Shown piece by piece: positions 9,428 to 51,811 of a DNA stretch of 64,000 nt. The DNA is taken from the NCBI GenBank assembly GCA_018829185.1, contig JAHJUI010000005.1, positions 682 to 64,681 on the forward strand, in the 5' to 3' direction. Below the pieces are notes generated by a model. That model made no database searches, was not told where the DNA came from, and was given only the letters and a program-made list of their open reading frames with translations. The DNA is from Nanobdellota archaeon (lineage in GTDB: Archaea > Nanobdellota > Nanobdellia > SCGC-AAA011-G17 > PNOQ01). How positions within the stretch are numbered: position 1 is the stretch's first letter; every line of letters begins with the position of its first letter. Made by a program: the position numbers and the translations under genes.

Positions 9428-11224
9428 TTATTCGACTGTGCAGCTTTTCGCGAGGTTGCGAGGCTGATCAACGTCACATTCTTTTTTTACTGCAATATAA
9501 TAAGCAAGTAATTGCATTGGAATAGATGCTAATATTGGTGTTAAGATGTAAGAAGTTTCTGGGATATACATTGTAAAGTCACTTAGTTCTCTTATTTCTT
9601 TATCTCCTATGGTTGCAATAGAAATTATTATTCCCCCGCGAGCTTTAACTTCTTCTATATTGGAAATTACTTTTTTGTAAGTTCTGTTGTCTTTTGTTGC
9701 TATGAAAAATACAGGCATTTCATTGTCTATTAAAGCAATTGGTCCATGTTTCATTTCTGCTGCAGGATAACCTTCTGCGTGAATGTAACTTACTTCTTTT
9801 AGTTTTAATGCTCCTTCTAAAGCTATTGGAAAGTTTATTCCTCTCCCTAAATATAATGCATTTTTCTTTAAGTAATATTTATCAGCACATTCAAGTACTT
9901 CTTTTCCATTGTTTAAAATGGATCTTATCAAATTTGGGATTAGTTTTATGTCACGAATTCTGTTTTCTATTTGTTGTAAGGGAAGAATATTTCTAACCTT
10001 TCCAAAATAAATTGTTAAATAATATAACATTGTTAATTGAGATGTAAATGCTTTTGTTGAAGCAACTCCAATTTCTGGACCTGCATCTAAATGTATTGTG
10101 GAATCTGATTCACGCTCTATAGTTGAGCCATGAACATTAACTAGGGAAACTATTTTTGCTCCTTTTGATTTTGCTTCTCTTAAAGCTGCAAGTGTATCTG
10201 CTGTTTCTCCTGATTGGGATATTGGAATTACTAATGTGTTTTCATCTAATATTGGGTCCCTGTATCTAAACTCTGATGCATATTCTACTTCTGTTGGAAT
10301 CTTTAATAATTCTTCAAACATAAATTCAGCTATTAAAGCAGAATGCCAAGAAGTGCCACAAGCAACTAAAACTATTCTTTTTATGTTTTTTATTTCGTTT
10401 TCAGTAAGATTTAAGTTAGAGAATAAGATTTCATTGTTTAATACTCTTTTTTGATTTATTTTTTCTATTATGTCTGCTTGTTCATGAATTTCTTTTAACA
10501 TAAAATGAGGATAATTATTTTTTTCAGCTTCTTCTATTGACCAAGAGATTTCCATTGGTTTTCTTTTGATTTCTTTATTTGTGTAAATATTTGATATTTT
10601 TATTTTATCATTAATTACTGCTATTTCATCATCTTCTAAAAACAATACTTTATTTGTGTGTTTTAAGAATGCTGGAATGTCAGATGCTATGAAGTAATCA
10701 TTATCTTTTATTCCAATTACTAAAGGTGAACCTTTTCTTGCTGCAAGTATTTGATCAGAATCTTTGTTTATTGCTAAGATTGCAAAGGTTCCATCTAATT
10801 GTTTTATTGTTTCTTTGAAAGCTTGTTCAAAAGGTAAGTTTGATTCTCCAATTAAATGTGCTATTACTTCAGTATCTGTTTCTGATTTGAATTCATGGTT
10901 TTTTAGTTTGTTTTTTAGTTCTTGGTAGTTTTCTATTATTCCATTGTGGACTATTGCTATGTTGTTGTAAACGTGCGGGTGGGCGTTTTCTTTTGTTACT
11001 GAACCATGTGTGCTCCAACGAGTATGTGCTATTGCTATGTTTGATTTTGGTAATTCTTTGTTAAATTTGTGTATTTTTCCAACTTCTTTTATTATTTCAA
11101 AAGAATTATTTTGCTTTATTGCAAAACCATAAGAGTCGTATCCCCGGTATTCTAATTTCTTTAATCCTTCTATAACTATCTCAGATGCATTTTTACTCCC
11201 TTTATAACCAATTATGCCGCACAT
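9428..11224 (-). CDS. glmS: glutamine--fructose-6-phosphate aminotransferase (isomerizing)
   Basis: N-terminal MCGIIGY (Ntn Cys), two SIS domains, C-terminal ...LAKSCTVE. 598 aa. Confidence 0.92.
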   Translation of the reverse strand: MCGIIGYKGSKNASEIVIEGLKKLEYRGYDSYGFAIKQNNSFEIIKEVGKIHKFNKELPKSNIAIAHTRWSTHGSVTKENAHPHVYNNIAIVHNGIIENYQELKNKLKNHEFKSETDTEVIAHLIGESNLPFEQAFKETIKQLDGTFAILAINKDSDQILAARKGSPLVIGIKDNDYFIASDIPAFLKHTNKVLFLEDDEIAVINDKIKISNIYTNKEIKRKPMEISWSIEEAEKNNYPHFMLKEIHEQADIIEKINQKRVLNNEILFSNLNLTENEIKNIKRIVLVACGTSWHSALIAEFMFEELLKIPTEVEYASEFRYRDPILDENTLVIPISQSGETADTLAALREAKSKGAKIVSLVNVHGSTIERESDSTIHLDAGPEIGVASTKAFTSQLTMLYYLTIYFGKVRNILPLQQIENRIRDIKLIPNLIRSILNNGKEVLECADKYYLKKNALYLGRGINFPIALEGALKLKEVSYIHAEGYPAAEMKHGPIALIDNEMPVFFIATKDNRTYKKVISNIEEVKARGGIIISIATIGDKEIRELSDFTMYIPETSYILTPILASIPMQLLAYYIAVKKECDVDQPRNLAKSCTVE

Positions 11225-11247
11225 GATAAAAATGATATGTTAAAAAG

Positions 11248-11256
11248 TTTTATAAA
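11248..11256. promoter_or_regulatory. palindromic box A (TTTTATAAA) positioned to serve both glmS (minus) and the 11281 RNA (plus)
   Basis: About 24 nt from the glmS ATG on one side and about 25 nt from the first base of the GC-rich RNA element on the other. Confidence 0.4.
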
Positions 11257-11280
11257 GGATGTGGAATTTAAATTCATTAT

Positions 11281-11436
11281 GCCGAGATCGCGTAATCTGG
11301 TATCGCACCAGACTCATTTATGAGGGTGAACCTGGAATCAGATACGGTCAGCTGGGCCTGCAAGGGCGTCTGGGTTCAAACATGTGCGCTGGTTGCTTAT
11401 AGTTTCCAACGTGCGTTGAAAGTCCCAGTCTCGGCG
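11281..11436 (+). tRNA. putative intron-containing pre-tRNA (anticodon CAU; Met or Ile2 type) with two or more introns, one apparently in the T-arm; alternatively a novel structured ncRNA
   Basis: 156-nt GC-rich island in an AT-rich spacer. 5' part reads GCCGAGA-UC-GCG-UAAUCUGGUAU-CGC-A-CCAGA-CU-CAU (acceptor, D-arm with GG, anticodon stem, U33, CAU). 3' part reads CTGGG-TTCAAAC ... CCCAG-TCTCGGC-G (T-stem, T-loop, complementary T-stem, acceptor complement to GCCGAGA, discriminator). The two parts are separated by about 80 extra nt. A T-run follows (TTTTATTT) and box A lies at -25. The exact exon/intron map could not be resolved by eye. Confidence 0.4.
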
Positions 11437-11485
11437 TTTTATTTCCAAAACATTTATATTTAGGTGTTTACTACTAATTGTTAAT

Positions 11486-11908
11486 ATGTTTGAAATTCAA
11501 AACGCTAGATCTAATAGATTAGATGGAATTAACTTTGTTGAGGATGGAGGACGGGTTATTCTTTTACATGAAGATATAGCTCAAGAAGTTGTTTTAGAAC
11601 CTACTAATCAAGAGGATAAAAACAATCTTGGTAGATTGTTAGAAGCTTTAGAAACCGCCCAAGGAATTTTGTCTAATGGAGATTTAGGAAACGAGAGGGG
11701 TGTTTCCTATACAGAATTAATGTCTAAGGAAGGAAGTCTTTATCAATTTCATATGTGCCTCTTTAGTCCAGGAGTTCATTTAATTTCTCAGTTAAACTCA
11801 AGTGGATTAGAAACATATACTAGTTCTGTAGATTTAAACATTTATGGAAGGGGTGGAGCTAGGTTAATTACTGAGGCTCTTTTAACAAAATCGGGAGGTG
11901 AAACATAA
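11486..11908 (+). CDS. hypothetical protein (GC-elevated)
   Basis: 140-aa ORF. No recognised family. Confidence 0.45.
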   Translation: MFEIQNARSNRLDGINFVEDGGRVILLHEDIAQEVVLEPTNQEDKNNLGRLLEALETAQGILSNGDLGNERGVSYTELMSKEGSLYQFHMCLFSPGVHLISQLNSSGLETYTSSVDLNIYGRGGARLITEALLTKSGGET

Positions 11909-12486: not shown

Positions 12487-12729
12487 TTATAAAAGCTTTG
12501 AATGACCAAAGTGAATAAGCAAATCTATGTTTTTTACATTTGGAATGTCGCAAGCACCATAGTTTGAGCCAAACCAAATAAGAATTTTTGCTTTTGTGTT
12601 TTTTTCTAAGTATTTTGCAATAAAAGTAGCTTTTGGTTTTAAACCTGCAGGTAATTGTATTAAAACGGTTTTAGGTTTTTCTTTGTTTATTTTTTCTGCT
12701 ACTTCTTTTAGCTCTAGTTCGAATTCCAT
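12487..12729 (-). pseudogene. dph2: N-terminal fragment of diphthamide synthase Dph2 (2-(3-amino-3-carboxypropyl)histidine synthase)
   Basis: KTVLIQLPAGLK ... NYGACD ... LLIHFGHS match conserved Dph2 N-terminal blocks. The ORF stops after 80 aa (full length is about 330 aa). Downstream space is occupied by the RHH cassette. Confidence 0.5.
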
Positions 12730-37619: not shown

Positions 37620-37666
37620 GTTTATAAACCTTTCTATTAGTTGTTCTTTAACAGTAGTTACAAATT
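37620..37666. promoter_or_regulatory. mosaic copy of the promoter-associated element: inverted ATAGAAAGGTTTATAAAC plus AGTAGTTACAAAT
   Basis: The halves match the 43567..43595 copy but are arranged in opposite orientations. Confidence 0.35.
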
Positions 37667-38831
37667 ATTTTAGAATATTGATATTTTTAACCTTATTTTT
37701 TACATTATCTTCTTTTAATAAAAATTTAATGAATGGTTTGGCTTTTGTGTATTTTCTTTTAACAATAGTGTAAGAACGTCTTTTTTCAAACTTAACATTT
37801 TTGTATTTTTTCTTGAATTTAACTAAATGTTCTTTATGGGTTTTTAATGGTCCATAATGTTTTTTTGTTTTAGGTAAATTATCTTTTACTTTAAAATAGA
37901 AAATTGCTTTTTTCTCCCAATTCCAGCCAGCATCAATTATTTCAAAATCATTTTGCTTTAGTTTGTTTTTAATAAAGTCAAATGCTTTTAATAATTTACT
38001 GCCTACAATATCTTTTTTTCCAGATTTGGGAGTTACTTCTAATAGAATATAATCTTTGTAACTATTTAATTCAAATATTTCCTTTTGGAAACTTGGATTT
38101 TTTACTGCTTCTTTTAGTTTAGAAAATTGTGCTAATGATAACACCGCTGCTGCATTTCTTTCTTTTTGAACAGGATCAATTACTATTAAAGGGGATAATT
38201 TCTTGGCTTCATTTAGATTGAATAAAGCTTCATTTTTATTTTTGTAGTATTTCTCTGTGTCAATTATTACTTTTGGTTTCCATTTTTTTACGTTTTTTAT
38301 GAAGTTATCAAATGTTTTGTATTTTATAATTAATAATTCTGTTACATAGCCTGAGAAGCCCCTAATGTATGATTCTGCACCATAGAGTTTGTTTGCTTTT
38401 AAGAATAGTTTTAACTTTCTTATTTCGTTTTTCGTATCTTTGTTTGTTTTCTTGTTTACATAGCTTATATGTAATGGAGATATATCTGTTATGTTTAATG
38501 CTTGTTCTGGTTTTTTAATTTCTAAGACCGGAACTACTTCAAATAATAATCCATTAAACATTACATGGAAATAATCTCTAGAGCCATGAACTCTTTTTAT
38601 TTTATTAAATGATTTTTTAAGAACTATATGTAAAATATTTGATATTTCTTTTTCATTTTTGAATCTTACAAAAACATCTATATCTTTATTTCCTGGAAGG
38701 AATGTTCCTTTTGCATAGCTACCGCCTACTATTGCTTTTGCATTTCTTAAACGTTTATTTAATCTAGTTAGAAATATATTAGTTGTTTCTTTTAGCAATG
38801 TTACTTCTTTTTTATCTGGTATATATTCCAT
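37665..38831 (-). CDS. cca: CCA-adding tRNA nucleotidyltransferase, archaeal class I
   Basis: IVGGSYAKGTFLPGNKDIDVFVRF (GS...DxD) followed by the archaeal CCA body domains. 388 aa. Confidence 0.75.
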   Translation of the reverse strand: MEYIPDKKEVTLLKETTNIFLTRLNKRLRNAKAIVGGSYAKGTFLPGNKDIDVFVRFKNEKEISNILHIVLKKSFNKIKRVHGSRDYFHVMFNGLLFEVVPVLEIKKPEQALNITDISPLHISYVNKKTNKDTKNEIRKLKLFLKANKLYGAESYIRGFSGYVTELLIIKYKTFDNFIKNVKKWKPKVIIDTEKYYKNKNEALFNLNEAKKLSPLIVIDPVQKERNAAAVLSLAQFSKLKEAVKNPSFQKEIFELNSYKDYILLEVTPKSGKKDIVGSKLLKAFDFIKNKLKQNDFEIIDAGWNWEKKAIFYFKVKDNLPKTKKHYGPLKTHKEHLVKFKKKYKNVKFEKRRSYTIVKRKYTKAKPFIKFLLKEDNVKNKVKNINILK

Positions 38832-51702: not shown

Positions 51703-51704
51703 TA

Positions 51705-51776
51705 TGCGCGAGCCGGGAATCGAACCCGGGTCAGAACGTTGGCAACGTCCTAGTCTAACCGCTAACCTACTCACGC
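51705..51776 (-). tRNA. tRNA-Gly (anticodon GCC), no encoded CCA
   Basis: Minus strand: GCGTGAG acceptor pairs with CTCGCGC. D-arm contains GG. Anticodon stem GGACG/CGTTC with loop TT-GCC-AA. T-arm CCGGG-TTCGATT-CCCGG. Discriminator A. Confidence 0.85.
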
Positions 51777-51811
51777 ATACTAAGAAAAGAGAAATAGTTT
51801 ATTTAAAAATC

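What the first reader, a model, noticed from the sequence alone, without database searches (positions are those of the whole stretch)
11281..11436. GC-rich 156-nt element whose ends form a tRNA(CAU) frame but carry ~80 nt of insertions, pointing to a multi-intron pre-tRNA with a possible T-arm intron
The 5' 37 nt read as a textbook tRNA 5' half: 7-bp acceptor GCCGAGA, D-arm with GG, anticodon stem CCAGA, U33, CAU. The last ~27 nt read as T-stem CTGGG, T-loop TTCAAAC, complementary T-stem CCCAG, then acceptor strand TCTCGGC exactly complementary to the 5' end. The two halves are separated by extra sequence. In the T-arm the stem halves are about 41 nt apart, which implies an intron at a non-canonical 59-61 position as well as one at or near the anticodon loop. 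An anticodon 3' strand (TCTGG at 11369) overlaps the T-stem 5' strand, so the exon map is unresolved. A three-intron model with a very short anticodon intron also fits. The element has a box A at -25, shared divergently with glmS, and a T-run terminator. Multi-intron and split tRNAs are hallmarks of DPANN and Thermoproteales.
Basis: partly seen in the sequence, partly recalled or inferred. Interest (0 to 1): 0.7.

Follow-up and report, generated by a model that had tools for sequence, protein, structure and literature searches.

The report
Three-intron serine tRNA gene, DPANN archaeon
The 156-base GC-rich element is a serine tRNA gene (anticodon GGA, not CAU) broken by three short archaeal introns, a known kind of disrupted gene that standard tRNA finders miss; close relatives carry the same gene with none or two of the introns.

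Summary
Window 11281-11436 (+) is a class II tRNA-Ser(GGA) gene with three introns. They lie at tRNA positions 30/31 (11312-11330, 19 nt), 37/38 (11338-11349, 12 nt) and 59/60 (11381-11422, 42 nt).

Removing the three introns gives an 83-nt RNA. ARAGORN calls it tRNA-Ser(gga), and its minimum-energy fold is the class II cloverleaf, with G73, a 3-bp D stem and a 14-nt variable arm. That product is 80/83 identical to an intronless metagenomic gene (L126, Rfam tRNA 56.6 bits). It matches the intronless tRNA-Ser(GGA) at the same glmS-adjacent locus in a sister genome (L130/L131). Other relatives carry two (L127, L117) or three (L129) of the same introns.

The T-loop intron sits in a strict bulge-helix-bulge motif. 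The other two sit in relaxed motifs that show compensatory changes across relatives.

The host is an AT-rich MAG labelled "Nanoarchaeota archaeon" (DPANN). Multi-intron tRNAs, 59/60 introns and disrupted DPANN tRNA genes are all documented. This is therefore a new member of a known kind, of modest interest. Splicing itself is inferred, not shown.

The parts
11249..11256 (+). TTTATAAA, an archaeal TATA box (box A) at -32 to -25 relative to tRNA position 1. It is a perfect palindrome and also lies 25-32 nt upstream of the divergent glmS start codon at 11224.
   Evidence: Read. The same octamer starts at -32 in L131, L126 and L127 and at -33 in L129, although the flanks differ. Promoter function is inferred.
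11281..11311 (+). Exon 1: tRNA positions 1-30. It holds the acceptor 5' strand GCCGAGA, U8 C9, the D arm GCG-UAAUCUGGUAU-CGC, A26, and C27 C28 A29 G30.
   Evidence: It is contiguous with exon 2 in the intronless L126 and L130 and in L117.
11312..11330 (+). Intron 1 (19 nt, ACUCAUUUAUGAGGGUGAA) at position 30/31. Its own hairpin is CUCA/UGAG. Its GGUG pairs with C25 A26 C27 C28 to form the 4-bp central helix.
   Evidence: It is absent from L126, L130 and L117 and homologous in L127 and L129. The pair at position 26 covaries: A-U here against G-C in 66 Micrarchaeota genes.
11331..11337 (+). Exon 2 (7 nt, CCUGGAA): positions 31-37. The anticodon GGA is at 11334-11336.
   Evidence: L126, L130 and L117 read CC(A/G)GCCUGGAAAGC(U/C)GG without interruption.
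11338..11349 (+). Intron 2 (12 nt, UCAGAUACGGUC) at the canonical position 37/38, in a relaxed bulge-helix-loop motif. C32 U33 G34 pair with G G C of the intron. The 3' site lies in the 3-nt bulge UC|A next to the anticodon stem.
   Evidence: 3 of 4 central pairs. In one search the motif appears in the minimum-energy fold once intron 1 is removed. Homologous introns of 13-14 nt in L127 and L129 keep the pairing.
11350..11380 (+). Exon 3: positions 38-59. It holds A38, the anticodon-stem 3' strand GCUGG, the 14-nt variable arm GCCUGCAAGGGCGU (11356-11369), the T-stem 5' strand CUGGG, and UUCAAA.
   Evidence: The variable-arm and T-stem pairs covary.
11381..11422 (+). Intron 3 (42 nt) at position 59/60, in a strict hBHBh' motif. 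The outer helix is the 5-bp T stem. The central helix is U54 U55 C56 A57 paired with UGAA. The bulges are AA|C and AG|U. The inner helix has 7 bp.
   Evidence: L129 carries the same intron with a 6-nt deletion confined to its apical loop. L117 and 11 Micrarchaeota genes have unrelated introns in the same motif.
11423..11436 (+). Exon 4: positions 60-73. It holds U60, the T-stem 3' strand CCCAG, the acceptor 3' strand UCUCGGC, and the discriminator G73. CCA is not encoded.
11437..11444 (+). TTTTATTT, an oligo-T stretch directly after G73 and the likely transcription stop.
   Evidence: Read. Termination is inferred from the general rule that archaeal RNA polymerase stops at oligo-T.
37665..38831 (-). 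Archaeal CCA-adding enzyme gene. It acts in trans and is needed because the gene ends at G73 without CCA.
   Evidence: PF09249 tRNA_NucTransf2 E=5e-33, PF21133 CAA_C E=1.9e-10, PF01909 E=2.3e-9.

Best explanation
Window 11281-11436 (+) is the gene for tRNA-Ser(GGA) of an AT-rich DPANN archaeon labelled 'Nanoarchaeota archaeon'. It is split into four collinear exons by three endonuclease-type (bulge-helix-bulge) introns at positions 30/31, 37/38 and 59/60.

Proposed pathway (every step after the exon map is inferred):
1. Transcription starts about 25 nt downstream of the TTTATAAA box and stops in the T-run.
2. The archaeal splicing endonuclease (EndA) cuts in the 3-nt bulges. Intron 3 (strict BHB built on the T stem and T loop) and intron 1 can fold in the primary transcript. 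Intron 1 forms a 4-bp helix between C25-C28 and intron GGUG, plus its own hairpin.
3. Intron 1's motif borrows bases from the D stem and the anticodon stem, so it excludes the mature fold. Only after intron 1 is removed can the anticodon stem form and present intron 2 in a bulge-helix-loop motif at the canonical site. The predicted order is therefore intron 1 before intron 2, with intron 3 independent.
4. An RtcB-type ligase joins the exons.
5. The CCA-adding enzyme encoded at 37665-38831 adds CCA.
6. The 83-nt product has G73, a long variable arm and anticodon GGA. It would be charged with serine and read UCU/UCC.
For: 1. Spliced product. Removing 11312-11330, 11338-11349 and 11381-11422 gives an 83-nt RNA. 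ARAGORN calls it tRNA-Ser(gga), and its minimum-energy fold (-35.6 kcal/mol) is exactly the class II cloverleaf.

2. Intronless orthologues.
- L126 is 80/83 identical to that product. ARAGORN calls it tRNA-Ser(gga) and Rfam RF00005 scores it 56.6 bits.
- L130/L131 has an intronless tRNA-Ser(GGA) at the syntenic spot next to glmS, behind a near-identical promoter. The two genomes are 92.5% identical in DNA from glmS up to tRNA position 29.

3. A natural series of intron states: L127 has introns 1 and 2 only, L129 has all three, and L117 has 37/38 and 59/60 only.

4. Splice motifs.
- Intron 3: central helix 4/4, outer helix 5 bp, inner helix 7 bp, the best motif in the element. Only 9-12 of 1000 shuffles do as well.
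- Intron 1: central helix 4/4, inner helix 5 bp counting a terminal U-A pair (4 by the stricter loop rule).
- Intron 2: central helix 3/4, rising to 4/4 in L127.
- The full-length minimum-energy fold already shows the motifs of introns 1 and 3. The motif of intron 2 appears after in-silico removal of intron 1.

5. Covariation.
- On 11 spliced or intronless relatives, 98.5% of cloverleaf cells are paired and 14 of 24 pairs show double changes. None of 500 shuffles reached this, and slid controls gave 30-46% paired.
- In the central helix of the 30/31 intron, position 26 is A-U in the window, L127 and L129 and G-C in 66 Micrarchaeota genes. In the 59/60 motif, L092 has G57-C where the others have A57-U.

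6. A conserved TTTATAAA at -32/-33 in five genes.

7. A CCA-adding enzyme gene in the window.

8. Literature.
- Archaeal tRNA genes carry one to three introns at canonical and non-canonical positions (PMC3239211).
- A 13-nt 59/60 intron was cleaved in vitro by ARMAN-2 EndA (PMC3239211).
- The three-intron maximum is also stated in PMC4033280.
- DPANN lineages show increased tRNA gene disruption and unidentified disrupted tRNA genes (PMC5829648).
Against: - There are no expression or splicing data. Everything after the exon map is inference.
- No EndA or RtcB gene was found among the 40 window ORFs scanned, and the rest of the genome was not available.
- Introns 1 and 2 sit in relaxed, not strict, motifs. 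Intron 1's 3' bulge is closed by a 1-bp outer helix, or by 3 bp with a 4-nt bulge in the minimum-energy fold. Intron 2 has a G-A mismatch in its central helix and no inner helix. Both therefore need an endonuclease of broad specificity, which is not shown for this organism.
- The whole-element fold z-score is only -1.84.
- The six assemblies that carry the element are identical to one another, so they add no independent support.
- Covariation in the central helix of intron 1 rests on one variable position, because the search pattern fixed the other three.
Confidence: 0.9

Rival explanations
1. One reading: a multi-intron pre-tRNA with anticodon CAU (elongator Met, initiator, or Ile2), using the anticodon stem CCAGA/UCUGG.
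For: The string CCAGA-CU-CAU is literally present at 11308-11317, and UCUGG occurs at 11369-11373.
Against: - UCUGG overlaps the only usable T-stem strand, so no consistent exon map exists for this model.
- Position 37 would be U, and the discriminator is G rather than A.
- The 14-nt variable arm and the 3-bp D stem are class II features.
- The CAU segment is missing from L126, L130 and L117, which read CCAGC-CUGGAAA-GCUGG without interruption.
- With the BHB-defined junction, C31 pairs with G39.
Confidence: 0.01
2. A decaying pseudogene: a former tRNA-Ser gene disabled by three insertions that is no longer spliced or used.
For: Standard finders do not call it. Two of the three motifs are relaxed. 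A close relative has an intronless gene at the same locus. A tRNA census of the whole genome was not possible.
Against: - The exons are intact and differ from L126 at only 3 of 83 positions, none of which breaks a pair.
- All three insertions fall exactly where a BHB-type motif puts both cut sites two bases into a bulge, and their removal gives a textbook T loop (UUCAAAU) and anticodon loop (CUGGAAA).
- L129 and L127 keep the same introns. Their changes are compensatory or confined to loops.
- The promoter box is conserved.
Confidence: 0.05
3. The same tRNA-Ser(GGA) gene but with a different processing map. For example, intron 2 could be removed at shifted junctions or by another activity, or the order of splicing could differ from that proposed.
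For: Intron 2 has only 3 of 4 central pairs and no inner helix. The order of splicing rests on predicted minimum-energy folds alone.
Against: Only the junctions 11337/11338 and 11349/11350 reproduce the loop CUGGAAA seen in L126, L130 and L117. A shift of even one base changes the product.
Confidence: 0.03
4. A different structured RNA (reduced SRP RNA, RNase P RNA, a C/D box sRNA or a CRISPR-related RNA) that only mimics a tRNA at its ends.
For: It is a GC-rich island of unusual length with no tRNA call.
Against: cmscan at E<=10 over 11181-11536 gives only three chance-level matches (15-21 bits against gathering scores of 45-80), and none overlaps the element as a whole. No C or D boxes are visible in the introns. 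The orthologue series explains every base.
Confidence: 0.01

Closest known systems
Multi-intron tRNA genes of Thermoproteales (Pyrobaculum, Thermofilum, Caldivirga), with up to three BHB introns per gene. Sugahara et al. 2007 and 2008, as cited in PMC4033280 and PMC3239211.
   Same: There are three collinear endonuclease-type introns in one tRNA gene. Canonical (37/38) and non-canonical positions are mixed, and strict and relaxed BHB motifs occur together. Standard tRNA finders miss such genes.
   Different: The host here is a mesophile-type, 30% GC DPANN (Nanoarchaeota-labelled) MAG, not a TACK hyperthermophile. The endonuclease type is unknown here, whereas it is (alpha-beta)2 with a Crenarchaea-specific loop in Thermoproteales.
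ARMAN-2 (Ca. Micrarchaeum) disrupted tRNAs: pre-tRNA-Cys(GCA) with a 13-nt 59/60 intron and pre-tRNA-Pro(GGG) with 53/54 and 59/60 introns, cleaved by the epsilon2 EndA (PMC3239211).
   Same: It is also a DPANN host. The T-loop position 59/60 is the same, the introns are short (11-42 nt), and the central helix is built from T-loop bases.
   Different: The 59/60 motif here is strict hBHBh', whereas in ARMAN-2 tRNA-Cys it is relaxed hBH. The tRNA species differs, and there are three introns rather than one or two. The host is labelled Nanoarchaeota rather than Micrarchaeota, the ARMAN-2 lineage.
Micrarchaeota tRNA-Ser(CGA) genes with a short intron after position 30, found here in the genome-contig scan. 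I did not find them described in the papers I read.
   Same: The intron position is identical (30/31) in the same tRNA family. The motif is identical too: C25-N26-C27-C28 paired with intron GGNG, a 3' bulge AA|N, and a 1-bp outer helix G24-C32. Some of these genes also carry a 59/60 intron.
   Different: The isoacceptor differs (CGA against GGA). The introns are mostly 11-16 nt and lack the inner hairpin. Position 26 is G-C rather than A-U. Most have one intron.
Split and permuted tRNA genes (Nanoarchaeum equitans, Caldivirga maquilingensis, Thermofilum pendens).
   Same: They use the same BHB and EndA logic to join tRNA pieces.
   Different: Here all four exons are collinear on one strand in one transcription unit. 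No trans-splicing or permutation is needed.

Membership tests
Archaeal BHB-intron-containing (multi-intron) pre-tRNA gene | After the inserts are removed, the exons assemble into a canonical cloverleaf with the conserved tertiary bases. | tested here: met
   ARAGORN calls tRNA-Ser(gga) and the minimum-energy fold equals the cloverleaf. U8, A14, G18 G19, A21, the A15-U48 pair, G53, U54 U55 C56, A58 and C61 are all present; 98.5% of cells are paired across 11 relatives.
Archaeal BHB-intron-containing (multi-intron) pre-tRNA gene | Each intron is bounded by two 3-nt bulges on opposite strands, separated by a 4-bp helix (strict hBHBh'), or by a recognised relaxed form (HBh', hBH/BHL). | tested here: met
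   Intron 3 is strict (4 central, 5 outer and 7 inner pairs). Intron 1 has 4 central pairs, both bulges and an inner helix, but only a 1-bp outer helix, so it is relaxed. Intron 2 has 3 of 4 central pairs, its 3' site in a 3-nt bulge and its 5' site in the loop (BHL type), so it is relaxed.
Archaeal BHB-intron-containing (multi-intron) pre-tRNA gene | Intronless or differently interrupted orthologues match the predicted spliced product. | tested here: met
   L126 is 80/83 identical. L127 (2 introns) is 80/83 and L129 (3 introns) is 78/83 after splicing. L130 is intronless at the syntenic locus.
Archaeal BHB-intron-containing (multi-intron) pre-tRNA gene | The genome encodes a splicing endonuclease able to cut relaxed motifs, and an RtcB ligase. 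| tested here: inconclusive
   No PF01974 or PF02778 hit among the 40 window ORFs scanned. The window is a small part of the genome and the rest could not be searched.
Archaeal BHB-intron-containing (multi-intron) pre-tRNA gene | The precursor is transcribed and spliced in vivo. | not testable with these tools
   No RNA data are available.
tRNA-Ser (class II tRNA) | A long variable arm, a 3-bp D stem with unpaired 13/22, the G73 discriminator, and a serine anticodon. | tested here: met
   There is a 14-nt variable arm with a 4-bp stem (11356-11369), U13 opposite U22, G73 at 11436, and GGA at 11334-11336. The acceptor and arms are shared with Ser(GGA), Ser(UGA) and Ser(CGA) genes of relatives.
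tRNA(CAU): elongator Met, initiator Met or Ile2 | CAU at positions 34-36 of the mature tRNA, a purine (A) at 37, a short variable loop, and the A73 discriminator. | tested here: not met
   The CAU (11315-11317) lies inside intron 1. The base after it is U. The variable arm is long and the discriminator is G. The orthologues lack the segment.
Other Rfam RNA families (SRP RNA, RNase P RNA, sRNAs) | A covariance-model match at or above the family's gathering score. | tested here: not met
   Searches (gathering threshold, whole window; E<=10, 11181-11536) give no credible match on the element.

The most novel reading that the evidence does not exclude
The locus may capture very recent turnover of BHB introns. 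Two genomes that are 92.5% identical in DNA from glmS into the tRNA differ by all three introns (3 against 0), and the homology stops inside the tRNA gene, at position 29. The intronless allele is followed at once by an integrase-like ORF and a Prim-Pol gene. More distant, non-syntenic relatives share homologous introns with the window. One reading is that a mobile element integrating at the tRNA, or recombination with a spliced copy, reset the gene to an intronless state. That would give a concrete, datable case for testing how archaeal tRNA introns are lost or gained, and whether introns interfere with tRNA-targeted integration.
Probability: 0.2. Interest if true: 0.55.

Novelty: new member of a known kind. 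Interest (0 to 1): 0.3.

Why it matters
- It corrects an annotation gap. The gene is invisible to ARAGORN and to the Rfam tRNA model, so the MAG would appear to lack tRNA-Ser(GGA). PMC5829648 explicitly attributes incomplete tRNA sets in DPANN genomes to such unidentified disrupted genes.
- It places three-intron tRNA genes in a Nanoarchaeota-labelled DPANN lineage. The reviews I read report the three-intron maximum from Thermoproteales.
- The same 30/31 intron motif recurs in tRNA-Ser across Micrarchaeota.
- The series of 0, 2 and 3 introns among close relatives is a compact natural experiment on intron gain and loss and on how tolerant DPANN splicing endonucleases are of relaxed substrates.
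- None of this changes the known mechanism.

Tried and rejected
- ARAGORN and Rfam on the raw window give no call on the element, so they could neither confirm nor refute it.
- I removed the T-loop intron plus every possible single interval and ran ARAGORN on the results. It accepted 345 variants with many different anticodons, including Met, so it was too permissive to decide anything. I dropped it in favour of BHB geometry and orthologues.
- Other BHB candidates from the scan, such as 26/50, 16/108 and 15/91, give products that cannot form an anticodon arm, so I rejected them.
- The six contigs that encode the identical GlmS carry an identical element and give no comparative signal.
- My first MAFFT alignment of the loci used wrong coordinates for L129 and cannot place introns. 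I replaced it with an exon-aware alignment.
- I looked for EndA in the window and found none.
- I looked for other copies of the three introns in the window and in all loci. Only the orthologous copy in L129 turned up, so there is no sign of intron spread within the sequence held.
- I looked in L131 for a partial-tRNA direct repeat that would mark the far end of an integrated element. Nothing of at least 13 nt was convincing, and the integrase call is weak (E=0.004, below the Pfam cut-off). The integration idea therefore stays a hypothesis.
- I considered whether an intron hosts a C/D box sRNA. No C or D boxes are visible by eye.

Full report
**Observation**

The element at 11281-11436 is a GC island (up to 58% GC) in a window of 30.5% GC.
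- GCCGAGA at 11281-11287 is exactly complementary to UCUCGGC at 11429-11435.
- There is a D arm with G18 G19.
- CUGGG-UUCAAA and CCCAG are separated by about 42 nt.

ARAGORN finds only a tRNA-Gly at 51704-51777 in the whole window. Rfam finds nothing on the element at gathering scores. At E<=10 it gives only chance-level matches, which at most clip the element's ends.

**Exon map**

The minimum-energy fold of the 156-nt RNA already pairs the T stem and then shows the archaeal splicing motif:
- a 4-bp helix, U54 U55 C56 A57 with UGAA;
- 3-nt bulges on opposite strands, AA|C and AG|U;
- a 7-bp inner helix.

This is the bulge-helix-bulge motif in its canonical geometry (helix, central helix, bulge, helix on each strand). 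A systematic scan of all splice-site pairs ranks it first, with 4 central, 5 outer and 7 inner pairs. Only 9-12 of 1000 dinucleotide shuffles contain one as good anywhere. Cutting two bases into each bulge removes 11381-11422 and leaves the textbook T loop UUCAAAU, so this intron is at 59/60.

The T stem therefore starts at 11370. The 14 nt before it form a hairpin, GCCU-GCAA-GGGC plus GU. Together with G73 and a 3-bp D stem with U13 opposite U22, this identifies a class II (long variable arm) tRNA of the serine type, not a Met or Ile tRNA.

The same scan finds a second motif:
- C25 A26 C27 C28 pair with GGUG at 11325-11328.
- The 5' bulge is AG|A.
- The intron has its own hairpin, CUCA/UGAG.
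- The 3' bulge is AA|C.

Removing 11312-11330 joins CCAG to C-CUGGAA. This gives an anticodon stem strand CCAGC whose partner GCUGG lies at 11351-11355, and a loop that starts CUGGAA.

The remaining 12 nt (11338-11349) sit exactly at the canonical 37/38 site. There, C32 U33 G34 pair with G G C of the intron, and the 3' cut lies in the bulge UC|A next to the stem.

**Test of the product**

The spliced 83-nt sequence is called tRNA-Ser(gga) by ARAGORN. Its unconstrained minimum-energy structure is exactly the class II cloverleaf, at -35.6 kcal/mol.

**Comparative evidence**

Contigs that encode the identical GlmS carry an identical element, so they add no information.

A degenerate 5'-half pattern scanned against species-representative genomes returned 119 stretches. 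About 95 of them are archaeal tRNA-Ser genes, mostly from Candidatus Micrarchaeota. A tighter pattern scanned against JGI metagenomes returned four close relatives. A look-up of a GlmS from the same 90% cluster gave a sister genome.

| Locus | Introns (length) | Identity of spliced product to the window's | Notes |
|---|---|---|---|
| window | 30/31 (19 nt), 37/38 (12 nt), 59/60 (42 nt) | reference (83 nt) | - |
| L126 | none | 80/83 | ARAGORN Ser(gga); Rfam tRNA 56.6 bits |
| L130/L131 | none | 7 mismatches and 1 gap in 84 aligned positions | syntenic, next to glmS, near-identical promoter; two of the differences are compensatory pairs |
| L127 | 30/31 (18 nt), 37/38 (13 nt) | 80/83 | no T-loop intron |
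| L129 | 30/31 (22 nt), 37/38 (14 nt), 59/60 (36 nt) | 78/83 | G-C to A-U change in the variable arm; intron 3 differs only by a 6-nt apical deletion |
| L117 | 37/38 (73 nt), 59/60 (57 nt) | 84 nt, not scored | reads CCAGCCUGGAA without interruption; intron sequences unrelated |

Searches support the table.

Only the junctions given above reproduce the orthologues' sequence. A shift of one base changes the product.

On an alignment of 11 spliced or intronless relatives, the cloverleaf has 98.5% of cells paired and 14 of 24 pairs with changes on both sides. None of 500 shuffles reached this. Slid controls gave 30-46% paired.

**Splice motifs across relatives**

- 71 of 102 extracted tRNA-Ser genes have an intron after position 30, and 69 of them have a complete 4-bp central helix.
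- My search pattern left only one position of that helix free, position 26. It pairs as G-C in 66 Micrarchaeota genes and as A-U in the window, L127 and L129.
- 14 genes have a 59/60 intron in a BHB built on the T loop. L092, with G57, pairs it with C where the others pair A57 with U.
- Intron 1's hairpin changes A-U to U-A in L127.
- Intron 2's central helix is 4/4 in L127, and U33-G becomes U33-A in L129.

**Mechanism (inferred)**

TTTATAAA starts at -32 in the window, L131, L126 and L127 and at -33 in L129. This fits an archaeal TATA box and implies a very short 5' leader. A T-run follows G73.

Intron 1's central helix uses C25 (a D-stem base) and C27 and C28 (anticodon-stem bases), so its motif and the mature fold exclude each other. 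The full-length minimum-energy fold shows the motifs of introns 1 and 3 but not of intron 2. After in-silico removal of intron 1, the fold shows the D arm, the 5-bp anticodon stem, a 3-bp extension and the UCA bulge, which is intron 2's motif. I therefore predict that intron 1 is removed before intron 2, and that intron 3 is independent.

CCA is not encoded. An archaeal CCA-adding enzyme gene lies at 37665-38831.

No EndA gene was found among the 40 ORFs scanned. The two relaxed motifs imply an enzyme of broad specificity. Enzymes of that kind are:
- the (alpha-beta)2 type and the epsilon2 type;
- the L3-loop alpha4 type, which has been linked to increased tRNA disruption in several DPANN lineages (PMC5829648; PMC3239211).

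**Host**

NCBI labels the window's proteins "Nanoarchaeota archaeon". Archaeal markers in the window include deoxyhypusine synthase, a proteasome subunit and TrmB.

**Comparison with what is known**

- Archaeal tRNA genes carry one to at most three introns, at canonical and non-canonical positions. Three-intron genes are reported from Thermoproteales (PMC3239211, PMC4033280).
- 59/60 introns are documented in ARMAN-2 and were cleaved in vitro.
- Unidentified disrupted tRNA genes in DPANN genomes were predicted.

The element is therefore a new member of a known kind.

**What remains open**

- Splicing in vivo has not been shown.
- The endonuclease type is unknown.
- The direction of intron change between the window and its sister genome is unknown. 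Homology between them (92.5% DNA identity) runs from glmS to tRNA position 29 and then stops.
- In the sister genome the intronless gene is followed by an ORF with a weak integrase match (E=0.004) and by a Prim-Pol gene (E=1e-7). No att-like repeat was found.

Noticed in passing
L131 9862-9945 (-) and 5057-9787; window 9462-11309: A sister genome (GCA_043823355.1, 92.5% DNA identity across glmS) has an intronless tRNA-Ser(GGA) at the same locus. Homology with the window ends at tRNA position 29. Downstream lie an ORF with a weak Phage_integrase match (E=0.004), a winged-helix protein and a 723-aa Prim-Pol protein, where the window has its 140-aa ORF and DUF5652. This may be an integrated element at the tRNA, but no att repeat was found.
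   Followed up: partly
L008-L125 (for example L008 4260-4354, L082 777-875): About 66 Candidatus Micrarchaeota tRNA-Ser(CGA) genes carry a short intron (mostly 11-16 nt, up to 45) after position 30. All share the same motif, CGCC paired with GGCG and a 3' bulge AA|A. I did not see this conserved 30/31 intron described in the papers I read.
   Followed up: partly
L048, L085, L086 (genes of 235-250 nt): Some Micrarchaeota tRNA-Ser genes have very long T-loop inserts (about 105-130 nt) in addition to anticodon-arm introns. L085 appears to have three introns (30/31, about 38-40, and 59/60). Their exact junctions were not worked out.
   Followed up: no
window 11224-11281: The only TATA-like box between the divergent glmS and the tRNA is the perfect palindrome TTTATAAA (11249-11256). 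It lies 25-32 nt from both the glmS ATG and tRNA position 1. One box may therefore serve both directions, with glmS as a leaderless mRNA. The arrangement is conserved in L131.
   Followed up: partly
window 37665-38831 (-): An archaeal class I CCA-adding enzyme gene (PF09249, PF21133). NCBI annotates it only as 'nucleotidyltransferase domain-containing protein'.
   Followed up: yes
L051, L068, L109, L064, L083: Contigs filed under Methanothrix sp., 'Candidatus Acidiferrales bacterium' and Marsarchaeota carry tRNA-Ser genes with the Micrarchaeota-type 30/31 intron. The L051 gene is identical to that of Ca. Micrarchaeum sp. A_DKE (L082). These contigs are probably mis-binned.
   Followed up: no
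window 12487-12729 (-): An 80-aa ORF whose only family match is Diphthamide_syn (PF01866, from the precomputed table). From my recollection of the family, that is much shorter than a normal Dph2. It may be a gene fragment or a pseudogene.
   Followed up: no
window 51704-51777 (-): The only other tRNA in the 64 kb is an ordinary intronless tRNA-Gly(GCC) (Rfam 60.7 bits). Not every tRNA gene of this organism is disrupted.
   Followed up: yes
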